From a virus (taxonomy: Duplodnaviria; Caudoviricetes), in the IMG/VR virus record IMGVR_UViG_3300048838_000199, positions 1 to 56,969 of that record: a stretch of DNA of 56,969 nucleotides; one strand, given 5' to 3'. How positions within the stretch are numbered: position 1 is the first letter of the stretch; each line of letters starts with the position of its first letter. The notes below the pieces were generated by a model. That model worked only from the letters and a program-made list of their open reading frames with translations, searched no databases and was not told the origin of the DNA. This document shows, in pieces, positions 1-56,969 of this stretch. The position numbers and the translations under genes are program-made.

Positions 1-179
1 TCGGACAGCCTGCCCTGCTCGATCGTTGGCGCGTCGTTCGGGGCCATCAGCATGCCGGCCACCGCTGCGCCGATCTGGAACCCCTGCCACGCCGTCAGCG
101 CATTGATGCCCAGACTGGCCCCAGGGATGCCGGCCAACGCCACGCCCAGGATGCCACCAAGAACTTCGCCCTTACTCAT
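1..179 (-). CDS. N-terminal part of a J-like/GTA g15-like tail protein segment (runs off the left end)
   Basis: ATG at 179 overlaps the NlpC stop (ATGA); translates MSKGEVLGGILGVALAG...PTIEQGRLS, the typical start of this family. Confidence 0.75.
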   Translation of the reverse strand, partial: MSKGEVLGGILGVALAGIPGASLGINALTAWQGFQIGAAVAGMLMAPNDAPTIEQGRLS

Positions 180-616
180 TCATCACCCGTATACCTTGGC
201 CGCCAGACCTGGCCCAGCGTGTGCCGGTGGTCGTCGGTCAGCCGATGCTTGACTATGCGCAGCCAGTCCTCGCTGTGAACGATTCCCAGGCCGCCGCGCT
301 CGTGGTCGTACAGCACGCCCATGTGCATGCTGCCGGCACCCTTGTGGAACGTCACCACGTCGCCGGCCTGCAGGTCGTCGGTCGTGCCTTCATCGAACCA
401 GCTGGGCAGATGCTCGTGCGACAGTGCCACCAAGTCGGTGCGCCTCGAATAGTCGCGCACGTCCCAATCTGCCGGCAGGTAGCCGGTCGCATGGCCAGCC
501 CCAACAATCAGCCCCCAGCAGTCGACACCACCTTGGCTGCCCTTGCTTCGCCCTTGCCACTTGAAGGGTGTGCCCACCCAGTCCAGAACCTCTGCCACCC
601 ACTGCTTACGTGTCAT
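176..616 (-). CDS. NlpC/P60 family cell-wall peptidase (GTA g14-like)
   Basis: WVGTPFKWQGR..GVDCWGL, HMGV and IVHS motifs; position after DUF2163. Confidence 0.9.
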   Translation of the reverse strand: MTRKQWVAEVLDWVGTPFKWQGRSKGSQGGVDCWGLIVGAGHATGYLPADWDVRDYSRRTDLVALSHEHLPSWFDEGTTDDLQAGDVVTFHKGAGSMHMGVLYDHERGGLGIVHSEDWLRIVKHRLTDDHRHTLGQVWRPRYTGDE

Positions 617-1482
617 TACCCTGCCCTCACGATTCTGAGCATGACGTCGTTGCCCGGTATGTCGGGTTCACCGTCAAAGTTCAGAATGTTGTTCACGCCG
701 CTGGCGTTGGACTTCAGCTTGCAGGCCGCCCGCGTCTTGGCGCAGCCCTCGTACACCGTGAACTCGTCGCCCACCTCGATCGGGATGGCCGCATCGGTCA
801 CCAGCAGTATAGAACCGTTGGCCTGGTCATAGTGCCGCACGTCGTGCCGCAGCCCTGCGTTGCTGCCGGCAGTCCACACGATGTACCCGTAATCGAACAG
901 GCCATCAGCGAACGCGCCCACCAAGTCGGTGCTGCTGAACAGCTTGCGCGAATCCACGCCTGTCACCTCGGCAGCTTGCGATTCCTGGATGGCCTTGCAC
1001 TGCACGGGGTCACCGAATGCCGCCCGGCACGTCGCCTGGGTCAGTGGCACGATGTTGGCCGCCAGCCACTGGCTGCCCCCACGCATTTCAGCATTGAACT
1101 GGTTCTCGGCCCGCACCTGCACCTCGCCCAGCACGCCCCAGATAAGTCGCACCTGGTCGCCGTCGGGGTCGTCGTAGTTCACCAAGAACTTGTACACGGT
1201 CGCGCCGTCAAACAGGCCAGCCCGCAGCTGCTCGGCCTCGATGATGCCAGGCCGCACGAATCCCACCACCTCGCTGTTGTCCACGGCCAGGCCAGCCGAA
1301 CATTCCACGCTTGTGGGTTCCATGCCGCTGTTGGCGTAGTAGGTCAGGCCGTCGATTACCAGGTCCCTGCTGCAGCTCGTGAACCCGAACTCCTGGCCGG
1401 CCTGGGTGACCAGACGCCAGCACACCGCCAAGGTCGTGGTGGTCTGCTGCACGTGCGTCGCCAAGGTGCCGATGTTCCGCAT
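616..1482 (-). CDS. DUF2163/BR0599 family tail hub protein (GTA g13-like)
   Basis: TTLAVCWRL..FGFT, CRAAFGD..C, GCAKT..C..NILNFDGEPDIPG. Confidence 0.9.
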   Translation of the reverse strand: MRNIGTLATHVQQTTTTLAVCWRLVTQAGQEFGFTSCSRDLVIDGLTYYANSGMEPTSVECSAGLAVDNSEVVGFVRPGIIEAEQLRAGLFDGATVYKFLVNYDDPDGDQVRLIWGVLGEVQVRAENQFNAEMRGGSQWLAANIVPLTQATCRAAFGDPVQCKAIQESQAAEVTGVDSRKLFSSTDLVGAFADGLFDYGYIVWTAGSNAGLRHDVRHYDQANGSILLVTDAAIPIEVGDEFTVYEGCAKTRAACKLKSNASGVNNILNFDGEPDIPGNDVMLRIVRAG

Positions 1483-1483
1483 G

Positions 1484-2182
1484 TCAGGCCCCCAGTTCCT
1501 CGATTACCCGCAGCTTCATGTTGGCCGCCTCGGGTGATTCCAGCAGAGCCATGACCATGCTGTCGTCCTGCCACCGCGCATGCACGTCAAACAGCAGCGC
1601 AGCCCTGATGGGGGTGCCGTTGCTTGGTGCGCTTCCAAAGGTCACCACGCCGGTGGACGTGTTCAGCGTGTACTGGCTGGTGTAGGCCTGTAGCGTCGTG
1701 CCCAGCCACACCCTCGGCCCCGTGTACCCTGGATTGTCGCCGGCAGTGTCAGCAGCCCCCCACTTGCATGGCTTGGTGATCTTGCGCCAGGTCGTGATGC
1801 TGCCGAACGTGTACGGCACCCGCAGCTGGAACTGCGTGGTGGTGCCGTCGCCGGTGGCGAATGCCTCGATGCTGGCAGGGGCCAGCGGGGTGATGTCGCC
1901 GGTGCCGCCGTACACGTCGCAGCCTGTCCAGTAGTGCAGCATATCCCTGAACCTGAAGGTGTAGCCCATGCCCCTCAGTGCCAGATAGAACGCCATCAGC
2001 TGGTGCCGCAGGGTGAAGTCCTTCAGGAACGCGCTGGCCTCGTAAACGAAGATGGGGTCGGGCCTGTCCACGTTGGCCTGCGCGTAGCCGCTGCGTGCCC
2101 GCGCGATAGACGTGGCGAAGGTGGGGCCGCCCTGGAACGCCTCGCAGATGCGCTGCGGCATACGGATATCTTGGAACGCCAT
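1484..2182 (-). CDS. DUF2460 family distal tail protein (GTA g12-like)
   Basis: GGPTFATSI..SG, FRFRD, GDGTTTQFQL, RKITKP, FDVHAR. Confidence 0.9.
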   Translation of the reverse strand: MAFQDIRMPQRICEAFQGGPTFATSIARARSGYAQANVDRPDPIFVYEASAFLKDFTLRHQLMAFYLALRGMGYTFRFRDMLHYWTGCDVYGGTGDITPLAPASIEAFATGDGTTTQFQLRVPYTFGSITTWRKITKPCKWGAADTAGDNPGYTGPRVWLGTTLQAYTSQYTLNTSTGVVTFGSAPSNGTPIRAALLFDVHARWQDDSMVMALLESPEAANMKLRVIEELGA

Positions 2183-2199
2183 GCACCGATTATGGCGCA
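2177..2199 (-). promoter_or_regulatory. Class-II leaderless promoter motif TGCGCCATAAT-N6-ATG
   Basis: 23-bp exact repeat of 26111-26133; core also at 11056-11066. Confidence 0.6.
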
Positions 2200-2210
2200 G
2201 GGGCCGGCAT

Positions 2211-5200
2211 TTACCGGCCCGTGAAGTTTCGCCCGCGCTGCCGGCCTATCGCCGCAGCCATTTCGCTGGCCACCTGGCCGCTGGCCCGCCTGAACCCAAC
2301 GGTGTCGGGTGTGGTGATGTTCTGGGTCACGTGGATGATCGGGGCACCAGACTGCAGCAGCTGCTGGGTCTGGCTGCTGTTGTGCATTCTGCCGCCGCTG
2401 CTTGGTGGCGTCCACAGCTCGGGGCCGTACTCACCAACCAGGACAGGCTGGCCGATCATCGGCACGTCGCCGCCGGCAGCGAACCGCATGCCCTTGAACA
2501 TGCTGGTAAGGAATCCACCCTTACCGAACGCGCCAACCGACGACAGCAGGCCCACGATGCCGATGGCGTCAGTCAGCAGGCTGCGCTTGCGCCCACCACC
2601 GCCGGCCAGCATAGCCACCGACGCCAGCGCGCCAAACATGTCGATGTTGCCGCCGATCTTCATGCCGTTGGGCACCCCGCTGGTTTCGCCCGGCATGATG
2701 GAACTGGCCGCCGCGTCTGGGTTGCCGATGGCTCTGGCCATTTCGCTCGTGGCCCTGGCTGCCGCCTCGGTCGCCCGAACTTGCGCCTGCATCACTTCCA
2801 CCTTGCGCGCGTCGCCGGCACCTAGGACCTGCCCGGCCAGGCCGCCGGCCACCAGCTCTGCATCTGCTTCGCGCTGCGCTTGGAACCTGGCCGACTGTTC
2901 GGCCCGATACCTGCGCAGGTCGCGCCCTTGGAACAGTGGCTCCAGTGAACGCATCAGCTGCGATCTGGCCCACTCCAGGAACATCTGCCGAATGGTCTGC
3001 CGCCAGCCGTCCACCAGGCTGTTCCAGAACCCCTTGAACCCCTTGCCTAGGCCGTCCTCGAATGGCCGCATAAGGATGTCGACCAGGCCGCTGGCCTGCT
3101 GGCGCGCGTCGTCGGCCAGCCGTTCCATGTTGTCGGCCTGCAGCTGCCGCTGCCTGTCCTGGGCTGCCTGCACCTGCTCGGTGCCATGCACTTGGTCACG
3201 AACCAGCCGGCTCTGCTCTATGCGCAGCTTCTCGGCTTCCACCAGCTGCTTCTGCTGCTCGGGGGTGATTTCGCCGCGCGACACTCGGGCCTGTTGTTCC
3301 AGAAGGAACAGCTGCAGCTCCAGTGCGTCGTTCTGGTCCTGAATCAGCCGGTACCGTTCCTGCTCGGTCAGGGCCAGGTTCGCCTGAATCGCATGGATGG
3401 CCTGGTCGTGCTTCAGCTGCTCGGCTGCCGCACTCGTGGCCCCCTGCTTGCCCGCCAGTTCCTCGGCCACACGCTGCCGCTGCTCGGCCTGGAACTTCTC
3501 GTACTCGGCACGCGCCAGGGGTTCCAGCTCGCTGGCCTTCAGGTCTGGCCTGGCCATCATCAGCCGCAGCCTGATGCGTTCCTGCTCGGTGACGGCTTCC
3601 ACCAGCTGCTTCTCTTGCTGCAGCCGGGTGACTTCCTTGGCCAGCTCTGCGCTGCGCTGCTGGACCAGCTGGGTGCGCCGTTCCTCGATCAGCTTGGCCT
3701 TGTCTGCGTCGGTCAGGTCCCTGCGATCGGCCAGGGACAGCTTGAACTGGGCCAGGGCCTTCTCGGTTGGGTCGTTCATGGCCTCGGCTGCGCTGGATTC
3801 GCGCATCCGCTTCAGTTCTCGGTCCACGATCGTGCCCGACAGCATGCCGTGCAGCCGCGCCGCCCGTTCCTTTTCCTCGGGCTTTAGCTGCTTGTATCGG
3901 TCCAGGGTCAGCCCCAGCATGTCGGCATACTTCTGCTGCTCGTCTGTGGCTGCTGCTATGGCCACCTTCACGCGCTGGAATGACTGGTCGACCTCGGCCT
4001 GCTTCTGCTTGGCTTCCTCGATCTGCCGCCGCGCCTCGGCCTCGGCTTCCTTCCACGCCTGCAGGACTGCGCTGTCCTCGGCCCCAACCTTGCCGATGCC
4101 CTTGGCCCCACGCTTGCGCGTGCTGGATGCGTGCAGGTGGTCGTAATGGTTGCCGCCGGCCATGGTGCGCCACAGCACAGCCCGATCCTTGCCACTCTCG
4201 GAGTCAGGGAAGTACCCCATTTCCTGGAGTCGCTTGTCCACCAGGTCTGCCAGTCGCTTGCCCTCGGCTGTGGTCAGTGCGTGGCCGTTGATGGCCGCGA
4301 TGTCCAACGCGCTGCCGATACCGTGCCGGCTGGGTCCCTTCCTGTTCTTGGCGTTTACGCTGTCTGGCCGACGTGCCGACGACACCAGGAACTCCATGCC
4401 GAACTCGTCAGCAATCTGCCCCAGGGTGTCCACCAGGTCTGCGTTGATGCGCCGGCTGTTGCGCCCGTCGGGGCCGTGGTGCGCACGCTCGGAGACTCGA
4501 ATGGCACCGCGCCCGAATCGCTGGAACTGCTGAAGGTCGTAATAGGTCGGTGCGCTGCTGCCGCCCCCTGCCTTGCCACCCTCGGCCTTGGTCAGGTCTG
4601 CCACGCCGCCGTATCCCGCAGCCTTCAGCCGCTTGTCCACCTCGGCCTGGTACTTGGCGTCCTGGATCCTCTGCGCCACGTCCTTCTGGATCTGCGCTTC
4701 TCGAGCCTTGGCTGCCTGTTCCTGCAGGTACTTGGCGTATCCCTCGGGGCCTAGCTTCGCCTTGCGCTGTTCCTCGGCAGCTTCGCGCCGCAGCTTGGCA
4801 CCCTCGGCCAGCGTCTTGCGCAGCTGGTCGTTCAGCTCGGTGGCTGCCCTGATTTCCTCGCGCCTGGCTGCTTCCACCGCTTCGTTGCTGCCCTGCCCTA
4901 TGGCCAGCTTGCGCTCTTCCAGCACCCTGTTCTTGATGGCCTGCAGCAACGGGCCGCGCGGGTCGTCGCCCCAGATGCTGGGGTCGATGTTGAACATGCT
5001 GCCGTTGGTGATGCTCACACCGCGCTGCAGTTCAGACAGTGAACGCCCGGCCCCCATGTCGCGCAGGTCGCTGGCCTTCTGTGCCGCGTCGCTGGCGTCC
5101 ATGATGTTCAGCCGCGCCCTGGCCAGCTGCATCTCCTTCTCGTAATGGTTCTGCGCTTGCCGTGCTGCCTCTGCGTGCGCCTTGGCCACGTCCAAGATGG

Positions 5201-7232: not shown

Positions 7233-7278
7233 CTGGCCGATCGGTCTGGCCCTGCCACCCTGCTGGCTCTAACAGCAC

Positions 7279-11934: not shown

Positions 11935-12294
11935 TTACTTGCTGCCGCCCTTGGCTGGCTTGTCGGCCTTGTCCTCGGCCTGGCCGCCGGCTTCACCCTT
12001 GGGTGCGTCGACTGCCTGTTCGTCCTTGGGTTCCGGTTGCGCGTCGGACTCGTGCGCCGGCTGCTCGGAGGCTTCCTTGGCCACCCATGCGTTCGTTGCT
12101 TCGTCCCAGACCTCGGTGCCCACGTAGGTCACCATGCCCTGCCCTTCCAGTTCCTTGAGTGTCGATTCTGGCACCCTGTCGGTCGTGATGTTCTCGCCGC
12201 CGTTATAAGTGCCGTACTGCCCCAGGGCCGTCCATCGGACTGCCTGGAACACCTTGCGCGTCTGTTGCTTCTGCTTCGCCATAGTTCTCACCAC
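11935..12294 (-). CDS. Hypothetical protein, acidic low-complexity tail
   Basis: ORF packed within the head-neck operon. Confidence 0.6.
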   Translation of the reverse strand: MVRTMAKQKQQTRKVFQAVRWTALGQYGTYNGGENITTDRVPESTLKELEGQGMVTYVGTEVWDEATNAWVAKEASEQPAHESDAQPEPKDEQAVDAPKGEAGGQAEDKADKPAKGGSK

Positions 12295-12659: not shown

Positions 12660-12663
12660 GGCT

Positions 12664-22861: not shown

Positions 22862-23653
22862 TTAGAACTCCATCACGTTCTGCGCCAGTCGCTGCACGGC
22901 AGTCTGGCAGTGTTCGGGCCTGGCCTCGATCATGATGCACCGCCGGCCCTCGGCCTTACACGCCACCGCCGTGGCACCCGCGCCGCCAAACGGGTCGACA
23001 ATCAGGTCACCCTTGGACGACACCACACGCAGCAGCTTCTGCATCAGCGCGACAGGCTTGGGGCTTGGGTGGAACTCGTTGCTGTCCCTCGGGTTGTCCA
23101 GCACGTTGCCGGCTTCCTCGTGCTGCCATGGGCCTGGGTCTGGGGCCATCTTGATGATGTTGCCGGTGCCTCGGTCGTCTGGGTCGCACGTGCCCTGGCT
23201 GGCGTGCAGAATCAGCTCGTGCTGCGCTCTGAACCCGTTGCCCAGGCCCATGCTTAGCTTGTCCCACACCACCATGTTGTTCACGCGCAGGTTGCAGGTT
23301 TCGACTGCGCCCACCAGGTTCGGCCACTGCCGCCAGTCGATGAACGACAGCACGTTGCCGCTGTCCACCAGCGTCGGCCTGGCCAGCAGCAGCGTCTGCC
23401 GCATCAGCCAGATGAACCCTGTGGTGGTCATTTGGTCGTTCTCGATGGGCTTGCTGGCCCACCTCTGCCCGCGCAGCATGGCACCGCTGGTGGCCTTGGC
23501 CGCCTCAGTGCGCGCGCCCGACGCATAAGGTGGGTCTGTCACGATGGCCTGGACCTTGCCGGCCAGCTCGGGCACGATGGCTGCCAGCACCTGCAGCGTG
23601 TCGCCGCAGTAGATGGTGATGCCGGCAGCTTCGTCGTGGTGGTACGGGTTCAT
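22862..23653 (-). CDS. DNA methyltransferase (N6-A/N4-C, beta class)
   Basis: VTDPPY, HPSPKP, VDPFGGAGAT. Confidence 0.92.
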   Translation of the reverse strand: MNPYHHDEAAGITIYCGDTLQVLAAIVPELAGKVQAIVTDPPYASGARTEAAKATSGAMLRGQRWASKPIENDQMTTTGFIWLMRQTLLLARPTLVDSGNVLSFIDWRQWPNLVGAVETCNLRVNNMVVWDKLSMGLGNGFRAQHELILHASQGTCDPDDRGTGNIIKMAPDPGPWQHEEAGNVLDNPRDSNEFHPSPKPVALMQKLLRVVSSKGDLIVDPFGGAGATAVACKAEGRRCIMIEARPEHCQTAVQRLAQNVMEF

Positions 23654-38398: not shown

Positions 38399-40426
38399 CT
38401 ACCCGCTGGTTGCCACCGAGTGGGCCGAATCCATGGCCGCCGGGTGTGGCGTTGGCGCGAACGACAGCACCAGGCTGTCGGCCTTGTCGGGTGACTTCAC
38501 GCCACGGTCGCGCATGTCCTTCTTGCTTTCCATCTGGACCTTGCCGCTGGGCACCTCGATGGTCAGCACGCTGCACAGTTGGCCGATCAGCTCGGGGTCG
38601 TTCGGGATGCTGATGCACTCGGTGGGGTCGTGGGGCACACCGCCTGGGTCGCCTTGCCGCCACAGCCACAGCTCGTATGCCTTCCTGAACCTTTCGCGCA
38701 CCGTCCAATACAGCTCTGCGCGCATGTTGGTAAACAACTCCTTGGCCGGCTTGTCGCCAAAACGTCGCCCGCTGCACTTGCCGCTGCCGTTCACCGCGTG
38801 CAGCTTAAATGGCCACTGCTTGCCGCCGTTGGCCTCGGGGTGGTATTCGCTGGCCAGTGGGCCGCCATAGCCGCCGCCGGCATCGTAATGCAGCACCCGC
38901 GCACTGACGCTGCTGGTGACCATCAGCATGGCCCTGGCCACCTGCGCCGGCACTGGCCGCACAATCACCTTCTGCAGCACCACGCTGGCCCCTCTGCGCA
39001 TGGTCCACACGTCCACGTCGGCACCGCTGCCCGACAGGTCCGCGCCGCATTCCACGATTTCGCCCATGTCGCCCAGGTCCAAGTTGATGGCCGCCGTCAC
39101 CCACGCGAATGGGAACACCAGCCGATCGCTGGACGCGCTGTAATCGATGTCCACTTCGCGCGCCATCTTCGCCGGGTCTGTAAACCGCTGCTTGGCCTTC
39201 TCGTACCAGGGGTAAATGATGCGCCGGGCACCGATCGTGGCCGGGTCTGGGGATTCGCCCTTGCCCGTGGCGATCGTGTTGCCCTCGGTGTCCAACGCCA
39301 GCCAGGTGTTCTTGCGCGGGTCCTGCTTCCACCGCAGCGACAGCACCGGGTGGTTGCCGCTGAACCGCTTGGTGGCAAACCAGTCGCCGGGGTTGTTCGG
39401 GGTGGACAGCCAGAACTTCACCTCGGCAGTTTCGGACAGCGACGCCTCCACGCTGTCGGGCTTGGCCGTGAATGCAGCCTCGTCAATCAGCACGCGCGTC
39501 GCACGTCCACCGCGCCCGATCTGGTTGCCACCTTCACCCACCAGCAGCGAACCGTTGGCCGGGTTCAGGATGCGCAGCCGCAGGCCGTGCTTGGCTTCGT
39601 CGTATCCCACCGGGGCCATCCAGCTGGGCAGCGTACGTATCATCATGCGCGCCTTGTGCATGATGCTGGACGGGTCGCCCTTGCTGTCCACCAGGGACAC
39701 CTTGCGACTGCAGAACAGGCCGGTGAACTCAGGCTCGAACAGCCAGGACCAGGTGAACCAGGCCACCAGCAGCCAGGTCGCACCCATGTCGCGCGCCTTC
39801 TCGATGATGCCCTCGGCCTGCGCGCCTTCCACCTCGAACAGCCACCGGGCAGCTTCCACCTGGTAGTCGAACGGGATAAACGGCAGCATGCCCTTGTTGG
39901 GTGGCCGTGGCTCGTACGTCCAGCCGTAGAACTCCAGCCAGTACAGGAACCCGTCGACACCGCGCGCCGGGCTGCACTTGTCCAGCTCGGCCTGCTGTTT
40001 GGCCACGTCGCTGTTGGCCTCGGCCAGCAGCTTGCTGCGCTGCTCCAGGTTGGCCAGCTCGACACCGCGCGCCGGGCTGCACTTGTCCAGCTCGGCCTGC
40101 TGTTTGGCCACGTCGCTGTTGGCCTCGGCCAGCAGCTTGCTGCGCTGCTCCAGGTTGGCCAGCTCGACACCGCGCGCCGGGCTGCACTTGTCCAGCTCGG
40201 CCTGCTGTTTGGCCACGTCGCTGTTGGCCTCGGCCAGCAGCTTGCTGCGCTGCTCCAGGTTGGCCAGCATGGTGGGGTTGGTCAGCTTGGCCAGCCCTCG
40301 TATCACCAGGTGCGTGGCCTGGTCAGTGCCCACCTGCTTGCCGTGCCTGGCCAGCTCGTTGCGCACCACCTGCAGCTGTGCCGACTGCCGAACCTTCTGG
40401 AAGGCCAGCCGCGCCGTTCTACCCAT
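38399..40426 (-). CDS. Terminase large subunit
   Basis: EKARDMGATW, GRGGR..LIDEAA, LSTPN, GADLSGSG.D, SPDKADSL. Confidence 0.92.
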   Translation of the reverse strand: MGRTARLAFQKVRQSAQLQVVRNELARHGKQVGTDQATHLVIRGLAKLTNPTMLANLEQRSKLLAEANSDVAKQQAELDKCSPARGVELANLEQRSKLLAEANSDVAKQQAELDKCSPARGVELANLEQRSKLLAEANSDVAKQQAELDKCSPARGVDGFLYWLEFYGWTYEPRPPNKGMLPFIPFDYQVEAARWLFEVEGAQAEGIIEKARDMGATWLLVAWFTWSWLFEPEFTGLFCSRKVSLVDSKGDPSSIMHKARMMIRTLPSWMAPVGYDEAKHGLRLRILNPANGSLLVGEGGNQIGRGGRATRVLIDEAAFTAKPDSVEASLSETAEVKFWLSTPNNPGDWFATKRFSGNHPVLSLRWKQDPRKNTWLALDTEGNTIATGKGESPDPATIGARRIIYPWYEKAKQRFTDPAKMAREVDIDYSASSDRLVFPFAWVTAAINLDLGDMGEIVECGADLSGSGADVDVWTMRRGASVVLQKVIVRPVPAQVARAMLMVTSSVSARVLHYDAGGGYGGPLASEYHPEANGGKQWPFKLHAVNGSGKCSGRRFGDKPAKELFTNMRAELYWTVRERFRKAYELWLWRQGDPGGVPHDPTECISIPNDPELIGQLCSVLTIEVPSGKVQMESKKDMRDRGVKSPDKADSLVLSFAPTPHPAAMDSAHSVATSG
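39954..40268. repeat. Perfect 105-bp x3 in-frame tandem repeat
   Basis: Units start at 39954, 40059 and 40164. Confidence 0.95.
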
Positions 40427-46390: not shown

Positions 46391-47318
46391 TACCAGCTCC
46401 CAGCGCGTGTGCCTGGCCGTTTTGGGCCGCAGCTGCTCGTATCATCTGCTGCCGTTGTTCCATGGTCTGCACCATAGTCTGCACGCCATGCCGCACGCTC
46501 TTACCATTTACAGACGCTGCAGAACCGGGTTCTGGTTTCCATTCGCGCGCCACGTCCTCGATGATGCCCTGCCACTGGCCGCCGGCAGCCCTCTGAACGG
46601 CATGCACGACAGCCGCCAGTGGGTACTTGTCCCACCAACCGCAGTTAGTCACGCGCAGCCCGTAGACGGTGGGCATGCCCTTGCGCTTGTCGGCCTTGCG
46701 CGCCTTCACCCACTCGATCATGGCTTCGCGAAGCTCGGGGCAGCTGGCATACGGTTCGCGCACCTCATAATCGCCATCCTTCACGTGCAGCGTAGGCCAG
46801 TCCTTTGCGAAGTCGGGCACAACAATCGCCGCAGATGCAGCCAGGTCGCCCTCTTGTCTGTCTGATGGATGTTCTGATGTATGTTCTGATGTATTGGGTG
46901 GCGTGGTGCCGCACCCCCCTGCGGCATCAGGCCGCACCCCCCTGCGGTCTGTCGTCGCACCCCCTGCGGCATGGTGCCGCACCCCCTCTGCCGGGGTGTG
47001 GCATGGTGCCGCACCCTGTTCGGTGGGTTGGTCTGGGCCGTCGGCCAGCTGCTTCAGCCGCTGCACGTCCAGCCTGTAGACGCTCGGGAACCCTATGCGC
47101 TCGGCCACCAGAACCAGCACGCGCTGCTCCTCCAGTTTCGCCATGATGCGCTGAACCGTGCGCCTGTCCAGGCAGCAGCGTGTTGCTATGGTGCCCTTCG
47201 CTGGCCGCACGTTGTTGCCTTCGTCGTCGGCACGATCGGCCAAGGCCAGCAGGATCAGCTTCTCGGCTGGGGTGTCGGTGGGAATGTCCCAGACCTGGCT
47301 CATAAGTCTGATGCTCAT
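46374..47318 (-). CDS. Replication initiator (N-terminal HTH)
   Basis: MSIRLMSQVW..EKLILLALADRADDEG..IATRC..RRTVQR. Confidence 0.85.
   Translation of the reverse strand: MSIRLMSQVWDIPTDTPAEKLILLALADRADDEGNNVRPAKGTIATRCCLDRRTVQRIMAKLEEQRVLVLVAERIGFPSVYRLDVQRLKQLADGPDQPTEQGAAPCHTPAEGVRHHAAGGATTDRRGVRPDAAGGCGTTPPNTSEHTSEHPSDRQEGDLAASAAIVVPDFAKDWPTLHVKDGDYEVREPYASCPELREAMIEWVKARKADKRKGMPTVYGLRVTNCGWWDKYPLAAVVHAVQRAAGGQWQGIIEDVAREWKPEPGSAASVNGKSVRHGVQTMVQTMEQRQQMIRAAAAQNGQAHALGAGNESEA
46861..47020. repeat. Iteron-like repeats, probable replication origin
   Basis: CGCACCC at 46910, 46933, 46956, 46978, 47010; TCTGATG x3 at 46861-46891. Confidence 0.7.
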
Positions 47319-50754: not shown

Positions 50755-51830
50755 TTCGCACCACCTTCCACCAGCTTCAGCGGCAGGCCGGGCTGGTTGG
50801 GGTCCACCTTGCGCACGGGCACGCCCTTCATCGTCTTGGGATGCTCGGGCTGGAACATGGCCTCCCACAGAACACGCGCATACAGGAAGGCCCGCATGGG
50901 TTCGCAGTCGTGTGGGTCGTCGCACTTGCGGATCCTCGGCCAGTGCCGCAGCTTCACGCCATCGGGCTGCACGTACAGGTTGGCCATCCAATCCAGTTCA
51001 ACCATCGGCACCCGCTCTGCCGTGTTGGGCACGCCAATGTGTTCAGCGTAGAAGTAGGCCGCGCCCTGCAGCTCGTGGCTGGGCTGGTCTGACTTGCTGC
51101 CCTTGGCGTCCACCATGCCCACCGGCCCGATGGCGTCCAGCTCGGGGTACCCCTGCAGCTTCAGCACGGTGTCCAGCGTGCCGGCATAGTTGTACGTGTC
51201 GCTCATTACCACGGCCTCGGCCATCAGAACATCAGCCACGTGGCGATCGCACCACAGCAGCAGCTGCCGCACGTACTGGTCGCAGTAGTCGGGTGTCAGG
51301 GTGAACCCCTTGGCCTGAATCAGCCCCTGGGTGTAGTCGGTGACTTCGTTGGAACTGATGCGCAGGCCATACGCCCATTCCTCTAGTGCGCCGTGCAGGA
51401 TGCTGCCACGGTTGGCGCGCTTCCTCATTTCCCTGGGGCCGGCCTTCTTAATCCAGTGCATGCCGAAGTTCTTGGGCCAGCTCGGTGGCTGCAGCTTGTT
51501 CAGTAGCAAGTCGATGGCCGCCACTTCCACGGTTTCGCCGCCGTCCTCGTTGTCGGTGTCCACCCACACGGGCACGGGTGTCTTGGTTCTGGCTGCCTCG
51601 GCCAGGAAGTTCACGTACTCGGCAGTGAACCAGTGTTCAGCGTGCCGCATGCCGCCTGCCATGAACTCGTCCAGCACCGTAGTCACCGATGGGTACATGG
51701 TCACGGCCTCGGGGTTCTCGGCCAGGGTTGGGTGTGGCCATCGGTAAATGCCGGTGGCGTCGTCGCGCAGGTCCGTGCCGTGCTTCCACGTCGGCTGCCC
51801 TTCAGTTTGCTGTGTGTTGGTTGGTTTCAT
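50751..51830 (-). CDS. PD-(D/E)XK exonuclease
   Basis: PSVTTVL, RGSILH, E..YAGTLD, VDAK, LQGAAY. Confidence 0.8.
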   Translation of the reverse strand: MKPTNTQQTEGQPTWKHGTDLRDDATGIYRWPHPTLAENPEAVTMYPSVTTVLDEFMAGGMRHAEHWFTAEYVNFLAEAARTKTPVPVWVDTDNEDGGETVEVAAIDLLLNKLQPPSWPKNFGMHWIKKAGPREMRKRANRGSILHGALEEWAYGLRISSNEVTDYTQGLIQAKGFTLTPDYCDQYVRQLLLWCDRHVADVLMAEAVVMSDTYNYAGTLDTVLKLQGYPELDAIGPVGMVDAKGSKSDQPSHELQGAAYFYAEHIGVPNTAERVPMVELDWMANLYVQPDGVKLRHWPRIRKCDDPHDCEPMRAFLYARVLWEAMFQPEHPKTMKGVPVRKVDPNQPGLPLKLVEGGAK

Positions 51831-51852
51831 GGGGTTGTGGTTGGGTTGGTCC

Positions 51853-52107
51853 TTAGTCGTCGCGCCCAAGTGCTTCCAGCTTCGTGGGCTGTTCTTGGTC
51901 CTGCGCGTCGCCTGGCAGTTCACCGTTGGCACTTTGCCACCGTCGCTGCATCGTTTCGTGGAACAGGTTGGGGTACGCCTCGGCCAGCCGTGGGCTGTCG
52001 TCGTCGTCCACCAGAATGGCCGCCATGATGAACACGCGCGCCGGGATGCCCTGGTCTGCCAATGCCTTGGCGTCCAGGTAATGCAGCTGCCGCACGTTCT
52101 CGGGCAT
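51853..52107 (-). CDS. Hypothetical protein
   Basis: TGATG overlap. Confidence 0.55.
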   Translation of the reverse strand: MPENVRQLHYLDAKALADQGIPARVFIMAAILVDDDDSPRLAEAYPNLFHETMQRRWQSANGELPGDAQDQEQPTKLEALGRDD

Positions 52108-52382
52108 CAGCTGGCCGCCTCGATCGGCTGCAGCTCCTTGGCCCACTTCACCCACTTGAACAGGGTGCGATCGCTCGGCATGTGCTTGCCCCACTTCTTG
52201 CGCAGCTCTGCAGTGGTCAATGCCTGGCCCGCTTCGTTCTCGCCGCGAACGTCGCCAACGAACTCGTGCCGCTTCTTGATGGGCACGGCAGGCTTGGACC
52301 CCCCGCCGTGCGTGTCGCCTGGCCAAGCCAGATCATAAGTTCTACCGGCATGGGTCGTGCCGGTGATGGGTTTCTGTTCCAT
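52107..52382 (-). CDS. Small HTH-like protein, candidate regulator
   Basis: TTAELRKKW..SDRTLFKWVK; TATAAT just upstream. Confidence 0.5.
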   Translation of the reverse strand: MEQKPITGTTHAGRTYDLAWPGDTHGGGSKPAVPIKKRHEFVGDVRGENEAGQALTTAELRKKWGKHMPSDRTLFKWVKWAKELQPIEAAS

Positions 52383-52538
52383 ACGCACGGCATTATACTG
52401 CATGATGCGCGCCGATGGTGCAGCACGGTGAAGTTTATGGTAGGATTCCAAAACGGCCAGCGCGCACCGCCTCGATCATCACCACCACCCACGCGCGCAG
52501 GTGGTCACAACCACGCACCCCAGGGGGGCACCTCGTAA

Positions 52539-53273
52539 ATGAACCAAGAACTGTACAAGCTCGAAAACACTGTCCGCAAGGCAGAATCGGCTTGGGATAG
52601 GCAGATGAAACGAGACGGGCACCTAAAGAAGGAATCCCGCGACATTTCCACCTGCACCCCGGCCACCATGTCACCCACCGCGCGCGCTTTCTATCACGAA
52701 TACACCGCCGCCAAGACGAAGCTGGACGACGAAGCCAACCGCACCAACCTGTTCGGAGGCAGTCCTGCCGCCCCGAACGACGGCCTGGACGACGACGACA
52801 CCGACGACGACGAACAGCAGCCCCGTGGTCGCAGGGGCAAGGGCAAGGCCAGCCACCTCCAGGTGGTCACGCCGGCAGCAACACCCGAAAACGTGCAGAC
52901 GCCCGACGGCATGCCCGTGAAGGTCGTGGCACCCCAGCTGCTCGATGACTGGCGCGCCCTGTGCGCTGCCGAGTCGCTGGGCAAAAAGAACCCCACCGCC
53001 AAGGTGATCGTGCTGGAAGGTGGCACCTGGGTCTGCACCCAGGTCGGTGAAGGCTTCGCTGTGCTTACCCGCTGCGTCACCGAACACGAATACGAAGGTG
53101 AACGCCACGACAGCATGGAAGGCAGGGACCCCGACGACACCGCCGGCTTGGTGTTCCGCTCTGGCCCTGGTCGTTCGCCGCAGTATGTCCTGATGAACTC
53201 GGGGCAATCTGTCGCTGCTGTTGCTGGGGACCCTCTGCAGAACGTTCAGCTGCAGACGGGCACCGACGAATAA
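52539..53273 (+). CDS. Hypothetical protein (divergent, + strand)
   Basis: Clean ORF; TAGGAT upstream; terminator downstream. Confidence 0.8.
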   Translation: MNQELYKLENTVRKAESAWDRQMKRDGHLKKESRDISTCTPATMSPTARAFYHEYTAAKTKLDDEANRTNLFGGSPAAPNDGLDDDDTDDDEQQPRGRRGKGKASHLQVVTPAATPENVQTPDGMPVKVVAPQLLDDWRALCAAESLGKKNPTAKVIVLEGGTWVCTQVGEGFAVLTRCVTEHEYEGERHDSMEGRDPDDTAGLVFRSGPGRSPQYVLMNSGQSVAAVAGDPLQNVQLQTGTDE

Positions 53274-53292
53274 GCCACCGCCGGCAGGCACA

Positions 53293-53335
53293 GAAAAGGC
53301 CCCCGCCCTTGATCTGGGTGGGGGCCTTCTCGTTT
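53293..53335. terminator. Bidirectional terminator
   Basis: aaaaggccccc...ggggccttct between convergent genes. Confidence 0.8.
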
Positions 53336-53343
53336 GTTGGGCA

Positions 53344-54387
53344 TCAGCTCACGACGCGATACCTGAACCCCATCATGGGCCGCATCAGCTGGTCGCTGCC
53401 GAACTGCTGGCCGGTCGTCGGGTTGCTGCCTGGCGTGTACGGGAATGCCTGCGCGCCTGCGCTTAGTTTCTTCATCTGGTAGCCCAGGGTTGGCCGGCCT
53501 TGGTCAGCACACTGGCCAGCACTCCAAGTGCCCTCGATGTGGACGCCCAGGAAGTACCACGTGTGCGCCTTGAACACGCGCCTGGCCGCCGTCGTCTTGG
53601 TGGCGATGCCCCAGCTGATACTGCCGGGTGATGCTATCACGTCGTTGTTGGTCACCCTGGTGTGGCCGGTGCCCTGGCCCACGATGTCCTCGACTGCGCC
53701 GCTGAACATGATCGGGCCGACTTGCCCAGTGCTGGCCATTTCGTGGAACCATGTGCGGATCCTCGCAGTGGTGGCGTCGCTGCTCGGCAGCTGGGGGCCG
53801 AACACAAAAATAACCTGGTCCACGCTGGCGTTGTGCGTGAACATGAACGGGATGTACCCAGGGGTCTGGTTCCCGCTCGTGGGCAGCGCGATGGCGTTGG
53901 TGACGCTCACAGGGTTGCCCAGCAGCAGCTGCTGCGTGTTCACGAACTGGTCGACGCTGCCGATGACGCCATAGCTGCGCAGCGTCCAGTATCCCGTCGA
54001 CGTGTACACCACCTCGATCCATGCGCCAGGCAGGACCAGCACCGCGCTGCCGGCAGTCACACCGTCAAGATTCACGCCGCCAGGGGCCGCCAGGGTGATG
54101 TTGTTCACGCCTGCGTTGCCAGACACGTCGCGCACAATGAACCGCTGGCCGATCTTGGGCACCACGCCAGCACCAGTGCCTGGCAGGGTGTAGGTCGCAG
54201 CTGCCGAGTGATTCGACAGAATGACGCCCTCAGTCTTCAGAAGGGTGGCCGTGGCCGTCTTGGTGGTGACTGCCAGCAGGCCGGCTGCAAAGTCGTCCAG
54301 CAGCGTCATGTTGCCGTTGATGGTGACTTCCTTCTGGTTCTGGCCGGGGTCCAGGTTGGTCAGTCCTAGCGTCGCAGTGGTGGACAT
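53344..54387 (-). CDS. Tail fibre / receptor-binding protein (DUF2793-like N-terminus)
   Basis: LGLTNLDPGQNQKEVTIN..LLD; follows the J-like gene. Confidence 0.7.
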   Translation of the reverse strand: MSTTATLGLTNLDPGQNQKEVTINGNMTLLDDFAAGLLAVTTKTATATLLKTEGVILSNHSAAATYTLPGTGAGVVPKIGQRFIVRDVSGNAGVNNITLAAPGGVNLDGVTAGSAVLVLPGAWIEVVYTSTGYWTLRSYGVIGSVDQFVNTQQLLLGNPVSVTNAIALPTSGNQTPGYIPFMFTHNASVDQVIFVFGPQLPSSDATTARIRTWFHEMASTGQVGPIMFSGAVEDIVGQGTGHTRVTNNDVIASPGSISWGIATKTTAARRVFKAHTWYFLGVHIEGTWSAGQCADQGRPTLGYQMKKLSAGAQAFPYTPGSNPTTGQQFGSDQLMRPMMGFRYRVVS

Positions 54388-54408
54388 GGCCAGATAATAC
54401 CGCCAGCC

Positions 54409-56841
54409 CTACACAGGGCCGACGGTTTCAATGGTGGGGTGACCTCGGCCAACCAACGGGGACACCTGGTACAGCTTGATGCCCAGGGTGCTGGGCACGT
54501 CTATCATGTCGGTGGCTTGCATGGCTGCCGTGTAGGTCCACGTTGGGCTGGTCAGGCCCGTGGCCGATCGTATCAGGGTGGTGTACGTGTCGTCCCACAC
54601 CTCGATGTCGTACAGCTCGATGGACTCACCCAGGGGCACCGTGCCGCTGCCGCCGTTGGCCAGTTCGTCGCCCCACCTCGATCGGTATTTCCAAGTGAAC
54701 ACCAGGTCGCTGTTGGCTTGCCGTGCCACGGCCAGGTTGCCCGGCCCCCACGGTTTCCGCGCGTTGCCGACTAGCTGCACGCTTGTGGTGGGGGTGTTGG
54801 TGTAGTCTGCGCCGGCCTTGCCCACGTCGAATGCGTGCAGCGTCTTGGTGCCGCCAACCTCTGACAGGTTGGCCTTGAATCTCAGGGCCGTGTCCTCGGT
54901 CAGAAGTGCCACCATGGTGCCGGCTGCCTTCACCTCGCGCGCCAGGTATTCGGTGCCGCGTCGCCCTCGCAGCAGCCTGGTCAGCTGGTACGTGTCGTTG
55001 CCCAGGTCCAGGGCACTGACATACTGCACAATCTCACCGCCAACCACCAGGACGTTCGCGCCATTCAGCACGTCCAGGTCCGTCGCGCCGGCAGGTGGGG
55101 TGCCCTTGACGCCGCCCACCTCGGCCACGGTGATGGTGAAGCTGTCGCCGTTCACGAACGCCGTGCTGCCTGCCGTGATCTTGAACCGCACCTCGTTGCT
55201 GAACACCGTGCCGACAGTTCCCGGGCCCACGGTAACGCCCAGGGGGTCGTACACCCTGAACGACGTGGCCGACAGCATCAGCACCGAATAGTTGCCGGTC
55301 AGCACGCCGCTGGCCGTCGTCGGGTCCTGCATTTCCAGGATGCCGTTGCCGGTGTTCGCGCCGGCTGCCGTGCCGTACGCCCCATAAACCCGTTCCAGCT
55401 GGAAGGTCAGCACGCTGGTGGTGTCCCAGACATTCGGGCCGGTGTACGCTGCCAGCGTGCCGGTCAGCCTGCCGATGGTCCCACGCACTGCGTGGCTGTT
55501 GATCTGGGTCTGCAGCTGGCCGCCGATGTCTCGAATGCCGGCCTGGTTCATCACCTTGGCACCTGGCCAGCCCGTGCGCGCCGTGGCCACCACTGTAATC
55601 AGGCTGCAGCCATCGAACGACGCATCGGACGTGGGCACCAGGGCATTCAGGTCGCCGGCATAAATCACGGGTGCGTACGCCTCGGTGACGCCCCCACCGC
55701 CGCCGTTTGGTGGCGCAGAACCGTCGCCCGTCAGGGTGTAGATGTCTGGGTCGTCGGGCACCATGGTGAACTCGATATGACCAAACAGACCCACCAGCTG
55801 CTTCACGATCTTGAACCGCTGCACAACGCCCGACGGCATGGGCATGTTCACCACGTCGGTGGGGGTCCATGCGATGTATCGCCACGGCAGGCACACCTTC
55901 ATGGTGTCGCGCTGCAGCTGCCGCATGGCCAGGTACCTGCGCGCGATGGCCATGGCGTTGGTTTCGGTCATTACCACCGGCAGGGGCAGCTGCTCGGCCT
56001 TGCGCACCAACGTGGCCTCCCTGCTTGTTGACTGGGTGAAGGTCTGGAAGTCGATGGCCTGCGAGTGGTACACCACGTCCACCTTCTGCGGGGTTTCCAG
56101 CTGCTGGCCTCGTGTCAACTGGAACAGGTCAGCCTGCGGATCTGGAGTTCCTGCCCCCAGGTGGCTCGTGTCGATCGTGCCGACAGGGTTGCCGCCTCGC
56201 AGCACCGCCTTCAGCTTGTAATCCACGTCCACGAAGTCGAACATGTACGCATCCTGAAGGGTGGCCAGGTGCTGCCGCGCCTCTGCGCGCTGGCTCAGCA
56301 CCATGCCGTCGACCTTCAGGCCGGCCAAGGCTGTCAGGTCACGGTTGCCGGCAGGAATGCCAGGGATGCCTGCGCTGGGGTCGCCGGCCTGGTCCATGAT
56401 GTCGTTCACCACGTCGTCCAGGTCCATGCGCCCGTTGGCGTCGGTGCCCTCGCTTTCCACCTCGAACGACATGCTGGGGGCACGCCCGCCGAACTTGTGG
56501 ATGGGCAGGTCCTTGAACACCACCAGGACACGGCCACGGTAGGCCGGGCAGTCGTCGGTGCCGATCAGTGCTTCCAGGGTGGGGCTGGCGTCTTGCGTCT
56601 GGGTCCCCAGGTACACCTCGATGTTGGCCAGGACCAGGTACGCCGCCAAGGATGGCCTGCGCCCGTCTGCCGTGGCTGGCCGGCCAGACCAGCCTGCCTG
56701 CTCGGGCCGATCATCATACACCACGCCGTTGTCGAACCAGATGCGCCTGATGCGCTTTACAGGGCCTCGGGACACCACCACCGCGATGGTCTGGTAATAC
56801 TCGTACCCGTTGATGTTGGCAGTGGGTTGGCTCTTGCCCAT
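54409..56841 (-). CDS. J-like / GTA g15-like central tail protein
   Basis: GPVKRIRRIW, PAYRG..DLP..FGGRAP..FEV, EIVQY..LTRLLRGRRGTE. Confidence 0.9.
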   Translation of the reverse strand: MGKSQPTANINGYEYYQTIAVVVSRGPVKRIRRIWFDNGVVYDDRPEQAGWSGRPATADGRRPSLAAYLVLANIEVYLGTQTQDASPTLEALIGTDDCPAYRGRVLVVFKDLPIHKFGGRAPSMSFEVESEGTDANGRMDLDDVVNDIMDQAGDPSAGIPGIPAGNRDLTALAGLKVDGMVLSQRAEARQHLATLQDAYMFDFVDVDYKLKAVLRGGNPVGTIDTSHLGAGTPDPQADLFQLTRGQQLETPQKVDVVYHSQAIDFQTFTQSTSREATLVRKAEQLPLPVVMTETNAMAIARRYLAMRQLQRDTMKVCLPWRYIAWTPTDVVNMPMPSGVVQRFKIVKQLVGLFGHIEFTMVPDDPDIYTLTGDGSAPPNGGGGGVTEAYAPVIYAGDLNALVPTSDASFDGCSLITVVATARTGWPGAKVMNQAGIRDIGGQLQTQINSHAVRGTIGRLTGTLAAYTGPNVWDTTSVLTFQLERVYGAYGTAAGANTGNGILEMQDPTTASGVLTGNYSVLMLSATSFRVYDPLGVTVGPGTVGTVFSNEVRFKITAGSTAFVNGDSFTITVAEVGGVKGTPPAGATDLDVLNGANVLVVGGEIVQYVSALDLGNDTYQLTRLLRGRRGTEYLAREVKAAGTMVALLTEDTALRFKANLSEVGGTKTLHAFDVGKAGADYTNTPTTSVQLVGNARKPWGPGNLAVARQANSDLVFTWKYRSRWGDELANGGSGTVPLGESIELYDIEVWDDTYTTLIRSATGLTSPTWTYTAAMQATDMIDVPSTLGIKLYQVSPLVGRGHPTIETVGPV

Positions 56842-56969
56842 TTACTTCTTGCCCCCGCCGCCGCCGCCTTGGTTCACAATGACCTCGCGCACGTCGCCAG
56901 CATAGACCACGACGCACCCAACACGTTCGCGCCCGTACACCGTCGGAATCGGCACCCCTTGGCTGGAAC
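56842..56969 (-). CDS. C-terminal part of the ORF that begins at 179
   Basis: SSQGVPIPTVYGR..GGGGGGKK-stop. Confidence 0.75.
   Translation of the reverse strand, partial: SSQGVPIPTVYGRERVGCVVVYAGDVREVIVNQGGGGGGKK

What the first reader, a model, noticed from the sequence alone, without database searches (positions are those of the whole stretch)
1..56969. Genome-wide strand polarity: GAGG/GAGC and (G)GCGG nearly absent from the + strand regardless of gene direction
Seen by eye, not computed: CCTC, GCTC and CCGCC are everywhere on +, but I found GAGG only a few times (e.g. 12068, 37778, 48232, 52756) and GGCGG about once (47909). Minus-strand genes use GAG freely and avoid CTC. The + strand gene 52539-53273 does the reverse: 16 of 17 Glu codons are GAA, and it uses CTC and CCGCC. 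The bias therefore follows the DNA strand, not codon usage. Known: T7 escapes type III enzyme EcoP15I because all its sites are co-oriented; type III and ISP enzymes need head-to-head sites. Inference: selection against one orientation of several asymmetric host defence motifs.
Basis: partly seen in the sequence, partly recalled or inferred. Interest (0 to 1): 0.8.

Follow-up and report, generated by a model that had tools for sequence, protein, structure and literature searches.

The report
One-strand purge of short DNA words
This uncultured 57-kb phage has removed a few very short DNA words (GAG, GCGG, GGCG) from one strand of its whole genome while keeping hundreds of copies on the other strand, most likely so that host enzymes that attack DNA in a strand- or orientation-dependent way cannot break it.

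Summary
On the + strand GAG occurs 56 times against 872 CTC, GCGG 39 against 614 CCGC, and VGGCG 0 against 638 CGCCB. Shuffling synonymous codons does not reproduce this: CGCCG is 0 against 144 expected. The one real + strand gene follows the DNA strand, not its own coding strand. All twelve 5-kb bins show the same polarity.

The genome also lacks many palindromic restriction sites. Its tail protein points to an alphaproteobacterial host. GAG/CTC is purged from both strands in three cultured Rhodobacter and Paracoccus phages. There the surviving GAGs sit in GANTC methylation sites, so the GAG reader is probably blocked by adenine methylation.

The best reading is selection at the DNA level against strand- or orientation-dependent, restriction-like attack. 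The enzyme is unknown. Classical type III enzymes fit poorly: the words are 3-5 nt long, depletion is graded by context, and two of the families contain no adenine.

The parts
1..56969 (+). Whole record. The + strand is purged of GAGV (18, against 747 BCTC), GCGG (39 against 614 CCGC) and VGGCG (0 against 638 CGCCB). Polarity is the same in all twelve 5-kb bins.
52539..53273 (+). The only supported + strand gene (244 aa, no family hit). It obeys the DNA-strand rule and breaks the coding-strand rule: GAA 16 / GAG 1, GCGG 0 / CCGC 12, VGGCG 0 / CGCCB 7.
   Evidence: 13 homologues at 44-61% identity and 225-278 aa; G+C by codon position 0.66/0.46/0.76; statistics; no Pfam or PHROG hit
53296..53328 (+). 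Hairpin with a 13-bp stem and a T-rich tail between the convergent + gene and the minus tail operon. It is the terminator of the + gene.
   Evidence: sequence
46861..47016 (.). Probable replication origin inside the RepO-like gene: three 12-bp repeats, then five 20-nt repeat copies spaced 22-32 bp, three of them palindromic TGCGGCA...TGCCGCA iterons. These iterons hold 3 of the 39 GCGG tolerated on + (46921, 46944, 46966), all in the TGCGG form. Polarity does not switch here.
22862..23653 (-). Phage DNA adenine methyltransferase (PF01555, DPPY motif). It aligns over its full length with CcrM (GANTC) and is a candidate protector of the spared GAGTC sites.
38399..40426 (-). Terminase large subunit. 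It marks the start of the late, co-oriented packaging, head and tail genes whose template strand is the purged strand.
54409..56841 (-). Tail protein similar to the host-specificity protein of gene transfer agents (GTA). Its matches point to an alphaproteobacterial host.
12068..12071 (+). One of the 4 surviving GAGG (the others are at 37778, 48232 and 52756). All four read GGAGGC.

Best explanation
Purifying selection acts on the DNA itself and keeps every copy of a few short asymmetric words on one strand. The words are GAGV, GCGG (mainly VGCGG) and VGGCG, as read on the purged + strand. The purge is made entirely through synonymous codon choice and choice of codon junctions.

The most likely selective agent is restriction-like DNA attack in the probably alphaproteobacterial host, whose damage depends on which strand or orientation carries the site. 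Two forms are possible. One is a nuclease that hemimethylates its site and cuts only between inverted site pairs, with type III, ISP or MANTIS logic. The other is a frequent-cutting, methylation-sensitive nickase, which makes double-strand breaks only when sites lie on both strands.

If all sites are co-oriented, the genome cannot be cut, or is only nicked on the strand that is not the template for 57 of my 58 called genes.

Shown: the purge, its independence of gene direction, that it is not explained by codon usage, and that strain variation respects it. Inferred: that a defence enzyme is the agent, that the GAG reader is blocked by m6A, and the host group.
For: (1) Strand rule. The + gene has GCGG 0 where 8.0 are expected from the coding-strand rate of minus genes (P=3e-4). 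It has CCGC 12 where 0.52 are expected. GAG is 1 of 17 Glu codons, against 63% in minus genes (P=1.5e-6). The 9,286 bases I left unassigned hold VGGCG 0 against CGCCB 103.

(2) Not codon usage.

(3) Ongoing selection. Mirror words are gained and lost freely.

(4) A site-avoidance lifestyle. AATT is 0 (22 expected), CGGCCG 0 (83), AGGCCT 1 (26), GGGCCC 1 (20), GTGCAC 0 (18), RGCGCY 0 and WCCGGW 2.

(5) The same GAG word is purged on both strands in 3 of 13 cultured phage records examined: Paracoccus R3 (GAG 12 / CTC 0 in 42 kb), RcHartney (1 / 1 in 15 kb) and RcBaka (73 / 32).

(6) Methylation sensitivity. In RcBaka, 32 of 37 GAGT are GAGTC and 17 of 20 ACTC are GACTC. In the window GAGTC is 17 against GACTC 24, which is no depletion, whereas GAGV is 18 against 747. 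The window encodes a DPPY adenine methyltransferase.

(7) One-strand depletion as an escape from pair-dependent restriction is in print: T7 and EcoP15I (PMC3874151) and MANTIS and type III sites (preprint section 10).
Against: No host, methylome or nuclease has been identified. GCGG and VGGCG contain no adenine on either strand, so the known hemimethylating systems, which all act on adenine, cannot explain two of the three families. The words are shorter than the 5-6 bp type III sites in the review I read.

Depletion is graded: GCGGA 10/18, TGCGG 25/132, GGCGG 1/262; GAGT[AGT] 21/101. Eighteen GAGV and 39 GCGG survive, which strict pair-dependent cleavage would not tolerate unless the true sites are longer.

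The strand test rests on one 735-bp gene, plus RcBaka's minus blocks (11 GAG against 3 CTC). The polymorphism test used only the 40 differences that the tool printed, and its null ignores codon position. The nickase precedent (chlorella-virus RAG and CCD nickases) is recalled from memory and comes from no call.
Confidence: 0.55

Rival explanations
1. Enzymes specific for single-stranded DNA act only on the strand that is exposed during rolling-circle replication or at entry. Candidates are DarT-type ADP-ribosyltransferases, deaminases or ssDNA nucleases with 3-4-nt motifs. The phage has removed their motifs from that strand alone.
For: The words are 3-5 nt with 'not-T' or 'not-A' flanks, and depletion is graded by context. 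This is typical of ssDNA enzymes. DarT2 reads TNTC/TCTC in ssDNA, and DarT1 modifies G and prefers two Gs one base apart (PMC11543638 and PMC12945103 passages). All forbidden + strand words contain G-A-G or G-C-G. TCTC (2 against 22.5 expected) and TTTC (6 against 39.5) are depleted on the minus strand. Polarity is genome-wide with no switch.
Against: The origin is lambda-like, with iterons inside a RepO-like gene. Bidirectional theta replication from it would expose different strands on its two sides, yet polarity does not switch there. TNTC as a whole is not depleted: TGTC is 100 against 55 expected. The sparing of GAGTC/GACTC specifically in RcBaka fits methylation of duplex GANTC better than an ssDNA footprint. 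R3 and RcHartney purge both strands.
Confidence: 0.15
2. The purge is self-avoidance. The phage's own enzyme, or its polar packaging or replication machinery, reads these words, for example a nickase or nuclease used against host DNA. The phage keeps them off one strand to protect itself.
For: Many genes are of unknown function. The genome carries a TopoVI-A-like gene, a neighbouring gene of unknown function (PHROG 6077, with an HExxH-type WLM hit below the Pfam cutoff), an exonuclease and a DUF5131 radical-SAM-like gene. In the window, R3 and RcBaka, GAG is rarer on the template strand of the late genes.
Against: No nickase or HNH family was found among the roughly 50 proteins searched. The three phage lineages that share the GAG purge have no detected nucleotide or terminase similarity to the window. 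A common host factor therefore explains the shared word more simply.
Confidence: 0.12
3. The constraint acts on RNA or on transcription. Long minus-direction transcripts must lack CUC, CCGC and CGCCB, for instance to escape an RNase or an RNA-modifying toxin.
For: 57 of my 58 called genes are on the minus strand, so the RNA and DNA readings are confounded over most of the genome.
Against: The + gene's own mRNA is rich in the forbidden words (CTC 6, CCGC 12, CGCCB 7), while its antisense is clean. It also ends at its own strong terminator. Unassigned and origin regions obey the rule. In RcBaka the residual bias follows the DNA strand in minus-gene blocks (P=5e-4). Sparing of GANTC sites is a DNA-level effect.
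Confidence: 0.07
4. The bias is a by-product of codon or dicodon usage, or of strand-biased mutation, without selection on the words themselves.
For: Coding strands are normally purine-rich. Second-tier asymmetries here (TTG/CAA, CTT/AAG) match those of Phobos.
Against: Synonymous shuffles fail by more than 100 occurrences. The + gene reverses its codon choice. The likely single-base mutation products of the forbidden words are not enriched: AAG, GAA and GAC on the + strand are all rarer than their complements, and GGG 1108 is close to CCC 1066. Counts of 0 of 638 cannot be a mutational equilibrium.
Confidence: 0.03

Closest known systems
Co-orientation of type III sites: phage T7 and EcoP15I, the 'strand bias model'
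   Same: An asymmetric site is present many times but in one orientation only, which gives immunity because cleavage needs inverted pairs (PMC3874151, passages read).
   Different: T7 involves one 6-bp adenine-containing site with 36 copies. Here three families of 3-5-nt words have hundreds of copies each (up to 0 of 638), two lack adenine, and depletion is graded by flanking base.
Single-strand depletion of MANTIS and type III sites in Pseudomonas phages (preprint 10.64898/2026.09.23.753747, section 10 read)
   Same: One-strand depletion is read as escape from hemimethylating, orientation-preferring defence. It occurs alongside two-strand depletion of palindromic type II sites.
   Different: Those are statistical depletions of 6-bp sites across a phage panel. 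Here the purge is near-total, involves shorter words, and lies in an uncultured phage with no known host system. Supplementary tables of the preprint were not available to me.
Classical avoidance of palindromic restriction sites by phages
   Same: The window also lacks AATT, CGGCCG, RGCGCY, GTGCAC, AGGCCT, GGGCCC and others on both strands.
   Different: Palindromes cannot show strand polarity. The finding concerns asymmetric words kept at normal frequency on the other strand.
Two-strand GAG/CTC purge in Paracoccus phage vB_PmaS-R3, Rhodobacter phages RcHartney and RcBaka (found here)
   Same: The word is the same (GAG), with survivors followed by T or lying inside GANTC. The hosts are Alphaproteobacteria.
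   Different: Both strands are purged in those phages, and GCGG and VGGCG are normal. The genome papers on these phages do not contain the words 'restriction' or 'GAG'.
Frequent-cutting nickases with 3-nt sites, with a cognate methyltransferase for the RAG enzyme (chlorella-virus Nt.CviQII RAG and Nt.CviPII CCD). Recalled from memory, not from a call.
   Same: They read very short words with a three-fold degenerate flank and nick one strand; the RAG nickase has a cognate methyltransferase. Sites confined to one strand would give nicks but no double-strand breaks.
   Different: They are eukaryotic algal virus enzymes. No such enzyme is known in Alphaproteobacteria, and none was found in this window.

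Membership tests
Type III restriction escape by site co-orientation | Asymmetric site present in one orientation only across the genome | tested here: met
   VGGCG 0/638, HGAGG 0/347, GAGV 18/747, GCGG 39/614. Polarity is uniform in 12 of 12 bins.
Type III restriction escape by site co-orientation | [quoted passage not shown] | tested here: not met
   GAG is depleted as a 3-4-nt word in nearly all contexts except GAGT, and GCGG is 4 nt. Only VGGCG is 5 nt, and it is degenerate.
Type III restriction escape by site co-orientation | Site carries an adenine that is methylated on one strand only | tested here: inconclusive
   GAG has its only adenine on one strand, and GAGTC (GANTC) is spared. GCGG/CCGC and VGGCG/CGCCB have no adenine, except the optional flank of AGGCG.
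Type III restriction escape by site co-orientation | A host enzyme that cuts DNA with inverted sites and spares co-oriented sites | not testable with these tools
   Host unknown. The only clue is a tail protein that points to Alphaproteobacteria.
MANTIS/BREX-type hemimethylating defence escape | 6-bp asymmetric adenine-containing motif | tested here: not met
   No 6-mer explains the zeros. The maximal zero-hit words are 5-mers with a degenerate position.
DarT2 (TNTC) target avoidance | Depletion of TNTC on the exposed strand | tested here: not met
   On the minus coding strand TCTC is 2/22.5 and TTTC 6/39.5, but TATC is 42/61 and TGTC 100/55.4.
Polar guide sequences (Chi, KOPS type) | Over-representation of the word in the favoured orientation | tested here: not met
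   The abundant orientation is at expectation: GCGG 525 against 528, GGCGG 225 against 230, GAGG 309 against 354. The signal is avoidance, not enrichment.
Palindromic type II site avoidance | Palindromic site depleted on both strands relative to a Markov expectation | tested here: met
   This holds for other words (AATT 0/22, CGGCCG 0/83, and others). It does not apply to the asymmetric words of the finding.

The most novel reading that the evidence does not exclude
Alphaproteobacteria carry one or more undescribed DNA-targeting defences that read words of only 3-5 nt (GAGV; VGGCG; GCGG) in a strand- or orientation-dependent way. At least one of them marks or reads cytosine or guanine rather than adenine. 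Phages answer by co-orienting every site genome-wide. That pressure may also help explain why nearly all genes of such phages lie on one strand, so that the site-free strand is the template strand.
Probability: 0.3. Interest if true: 0.85.

Novelty: new variant of a known kind. Interest (0 to 1): 0.78.

Why it matters
A phage genome can act as a negative imprint of the defences it meets. This one predicts precise and unusually short target words, with their flanking-base rules and a methylation exemption, for systems that nobody has described in Alphaproteobacteria.

It shows that one-strand site depletion, known for single 6-bp sites, can be pushed to near-total, genome-wide purging of several words using synonymous changes alone.

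It also gives a testable system in cultured phages: RcBaka and RcHartney on Rhodobacter capsulatus, and R3 on Paracoccus. Finally, it offers practical rules for building vectors or phages that survive in these bacteria.

Tried and rejected
Relatives' DNA. Scans with the TerL protein or its alignment found only distant loci (at most 56% identity, over a 52-residue piece) in viral contigs. They found one locus at 31% in metagenome contigs and none in genome contigs. I did not analyse those distant loci.

Nearest cultured phages. The only nucleotide match was 42 bp to Phobos and Ppu-503. The capsid protein had no match, and TerL reached at most about 32% identity.

Function of the + gene. It has no Pfam or PHROG family, no match in phage records, and no usable Atlas hit, with a low-confidence model.

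Readings considered and dropped:
- Chi-like enrichment was rejected because the abundant orientation is at expectation.
- Mutational conversion was rejected because the likely single-base products are not enriched: AAG, GAA and GAC on + are rarer than their complements and GGG is close to CCC.
- An assembly or sequencing artefact was rejected because contigs from other studies carry the same sequence, and their listed differences respect the rule.
- CRISPR PAM avoidance was rejected because one-strand loss would not protect.
- GDGCHC as a whole is not avoided (128 copies).

Expression. No RNA holder was listed for the stretch. The runs labelled RNA-Seq are flagged as probably DNA.

Loose ends of laid contigs contain forbidden words, but they may belong to other organisms or to non-homologous modules, so I drew nothing from them.

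Earlier scan notes held nothing on strand-biased words in other genomes.

Literature. Searches for strand bias with type III, for the Rc and Paracoccus phages, and for GAG/CTC under-representation in phage genomes found no description of this purge. The R3 and Rc-phage papers contain neither 'restriction' nor 'GAG' in their main text. The supplements of the MANTIS preprint, which list per-phage site counts, might bear on prior description.

Full report
WHAT THE RECORD IS. The window is a whole IMG/VR virus record of 56,969 bp with 64.6% G+C. PHROG and Pfam searches identify siphovirus-type genes: tape measure (2211-7232), capsid (13268-14413), MuF, terminase (38399-40426), a tail module like those of gene transfer agents (GTA), a RepO-like initiator, an exonuclease, a ThyX-like enzyme, a TopoVI-A-like protein and an adenine methyltransferase.

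My codon-likelihood gene calls place 57 genes (48,207 bases) on the minus strand. The tail genes run across the record's ends, and a related run holds a collinear 56,672-bp contig. The record is therefore probably a permuted complete genome, although CheckV rates it 67% complete.

THE OBSERVATION. In sharper form, the + strand holds GAG 56 against CTC 872, GCGG 39 against CCGC 614, and not one VGGCG against 638 CGCCB. All 118 GGCG on + are TGGCG.

Other maximal words with zero hits on + are HGAGG (0/347), GAGGD (0/248), GAGRR (0/224) and GAGST (0/208). The four surviving GAGG all read GGAGGC.

Depletion is graded by flank. GAGV is 18/747, GAGT followed by A, G or T is 21/101, and GAGTC is 17/24. 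GGCGG is 1/262, GCGGT 1/110, TGCGG 25/132 and GCGGA 10/18. All twelve 5-kb bins show the same polarity, with 1-7 forbidden words against 72-199 mirror words.

NOT CODON USAGE. I shuffled synonymous codons within each gene 200 times, keeping each protein and each gene's codon counts. The shuffles give coding-strand CGCCG 144 (lowest 114) against 0 observed. They give CCGC 365 against 34, CCGCC 137 against 0, and CTC 199 against 38. The mirror words are at expectation (all 3-6-mers).

Controlling for the window's own dicodon usage would be circular, so I used an outside reference. A 36-kb co-oriented block of Phobos (63% G+C) carries CGCCG, CGCCC and CGCCT at 3.7, 2.3 and 2.1 per kb, and its largest 5-mer asymmetry is log2 4.4 against 9.2 here. 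The second-tier asymmetries here (TTG/CAA, CTT/AAG) are the ordinary coding kind seen in Phobos too.

THE BIAS FOLLOWS THE DNA STRAND. The + ORF 52539-53273 is a real gene. It has 13 homologues at 44-61% identity and similar length. Its G+C by codon position is gene-like. It ends at a hairpin with a 13-bp stem and a T-rich tail.

On its own coding strand it has GCGG 0 (8.0 expected at the minus-gene rate, P=3e-4), VGGCG 0 (8.2 expected) and CCGC 12 (0.52 expected). It also has 7 CGCCB, a word that never occurs on the coding strand of minus genes, and GAG is 1 of 17 Glu codons against 63% elsewhere (P=1.5e-6). The 9,286 bases I could not assign to genes hold VGGCG 0 against CGCCB 103.

The probable origin lies inside the RepO-like gene: five 20-nt repeat copies, three of them palindromic TGCGGCA...TGCCGCA iterons, plus three 12-bp repeats. 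Those iterons hold 3 of the 39 tolerated GCGG, all in the TGCGG form. Polarity does not switch there.

THE BIAS IS UNDER SELECTION NOW. Near-identical and roughly 90% identical strains occur in wastewater, river and sludge runs of several studies. Contigs of four runs were laid on 37000-56969, and the tool printed 40 of the 2,273 differences. Random placement of the same base changes gives a net +5.0 (P=0.0005), and mirror words are gained and lost freely. This also rules out an artefact of a single assembly. The sample is small, and the null ignores codon position.

CONTEXT: A GENOME SCULPTED BY SITE AVOIDANCE. Many palindromes are missing from both strands. AATT is 0 (22 expected), CGGCCG 0 (83), AGGCCT 1 (26), GGGCCC 1 (20) and GTGCAC 0 (18). 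All RGCGCY are absent, WCCGGW is 2, and ACGCGT and CCCGGG are nearly absent. By contrast TGGCCA, GCCGGC, GCGCGC and CAGCTG are common. The asymmetric word CGGA/TCCG is low in both orientations (30/230 and 33/93).

HOST AND A WIDER PATTERN. The tail protein 54409-56841 matches 55 phage records, nearly all from Alphaproteobacteria: Rhodobacter 16, Caulobacter 13, Brevundimonas 7, plus Erythrobacter, Sphingobium, Ruegeria and Paracoccus.

I counted the words in 13 cultured phage records or 15-50-kb pieces of them. GCGG and VGGCG are normal in all 13. GAG/CTC is purged from both strands in 3 of them:
- Paracoccus phage R3: GAG 12, CTC 0 in 42,093 bp (about 700 of each expected).
- RcHartney: GAG 1, CTC 1 in 15 kb.
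- RcBaka: GAG 73, CTC 32 in 41,643 bp.

In R3, 7 of the 12 surviving GAGs read GGAGT, and at least six of them lie 11-12 nt before an annotated gene start, like ribosome-binding sites. In RcBaka, 32 of 37 GAGT are GAGTC and 17 of 20 ACTC are GACTC. The survivors therefore sit in GANTC, the site of the alphaproteobacterial CcrM methylase. The residual excess of GAG over CTC on RcBaka's + strand persists in its minus-gene blocks (11:3, P=5e-4 against a coding-strand rule).

In the window GAGTC is likewise not depleted, and the phage carries a DPPY adenine methyltransferase that aligns over its full length with CcrM. The papers describing R3 and the Rhodobacter phages do not mention this.

MECHANISM. 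The agent reads DNA, not RNA or codons. For GAG it appears to be blocked by N6-methyladenine. GAG has its only adenine on one strand, so any cognate modification would be hemimethylation. That is the situation in which type III, ISP and MANTIS systems rely on inverted site pairs, and in which one-strand depletion protects (PMC3874151; preprint section 10).

Several points count against a simple type III reading:
- The words are 3-5 nt.
- Depletion is graded rather than all-or-none.
- Eighteen GAGV and 39 GCGG remain.
- GCGG and VGGCG have no adenine.
- Three other phages purge both orientations.

A methylation-sensitive frequent nickase would fit the short, degenerate words and the graded cost. 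Such nickases are known from chlorella viruses; this precedent is recalled, not checked. Confining sites to one strand turns double-strand breaks into repairable nicks on the non-template strand.

An enzyme acting on single-stranded DNA (DarT-like) also remains possible. It fits the lambda-like origin and the GANTC exemption less well.

I therefore commit to orientation- or strand-dependent, restriction-like attack on DNA at 0.55, and leave the enzyme class open.

VERDICT. One-strand site depletion is a known kind of phenomenon. Its extent here is new to the literature I could search: three word families, words as short as 3 nt, 0 of 638, and GC-only words. So is the link to a recurrent GAG purge with a GANTC exemption in phages of Alphaproteobacteria.

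Noticed in passing
L054 (NC_026608.1, Paracoccus phage vB_PmaS-R3), whole record: GAG occurs 12 times and CTC 0 times in 42,093 bp (about 700 of each expected). Seven of the 12 GAG read GGAGT, and at least six of these lie 11-12 nt before an annotated gene start. GANTC, GATC (4), GTAC (2) and most GC-only 6-bp palindromes are also missing.
   Followed up: partly
L055 (MW677509.1, RcBaka) and L056 (MW677514.1, RcHartney 1-15000): RcBaka has GAG 73 / CTC 32, and 49 of these 105 lie inside GANTC sites. RcHartney has GAG 1 / CTC 1 and GANTC 0 in 15 kb. GATG/CATC is also low in R3 (10/6), RcBaka (45/35) and RcHartney (13/4), which marks a second shared avoided asymmetric word.
   Followed up: partly
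window 46861-47016: Probable origin inside the RepO-like gene: three 12-bp TCTGATGTATGT-type repeats, then five 20-nt repeat copies spaced 22-32 bp, three of them palindromic TGCGGCA..TGCCGCA iterons.
   Followed up: partly
window, whole: Many palindromes are absent on both strands: AATT 0, CGGCCG 0 (83 expected), AGGCCT 1, GGGCCC 1, GTGCAC 0, RGCGCY 0, WCCGGW 2, ACGCGT 0. GGTCTC/GAGACC is 0/0, and CGGA/TCCG is several-fold low in both orientations.
   Followed up: partly
window, minus (coding) strand: Further words depleted on one strand relative to synonymous shuffles: CGGGG 4/65, CGGTC 2/34, GGGTC 2/29, CAAT 9/72, TTTC 6/39, GATCT 2/23.5. Their reverse complements are near expectation. CGGGG is G-rich, so not every purged word on the coding strand is pyrimidine-rich.
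   Followed up: no
window 1-616 and 54409-56969: The tail gene module runs across the record's ends (tail assembly genes at 176-1482, tail protein at 54409-56841), and there is no terminal repeat. With the collinear 56,672-bp contig in run X6, this suggests a permuted complete genome rather than the 67% completeness estimated by CheckV.
   Followed up: partly
L051, L057, L058 (RcRudolph, RcSimone-Hastad, RcTiptonus): GANTC is nearly absent (8 in 50 kb, 0 in 15 kb, 0 in 15 kb) although GAG is normal. Avoidance of the CcrM/HinfI-type site is thus a separate and common trait of Rhodobacter phages.
   Followed up: no
window 52500-52538: The + gene is preceded by AGGGGGG 10 nt before its ATG, not by a GGAG-type ribosome-binding site. 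This would fit avoidance of GAG on this strand, but it is a single case.
   Followed up: no
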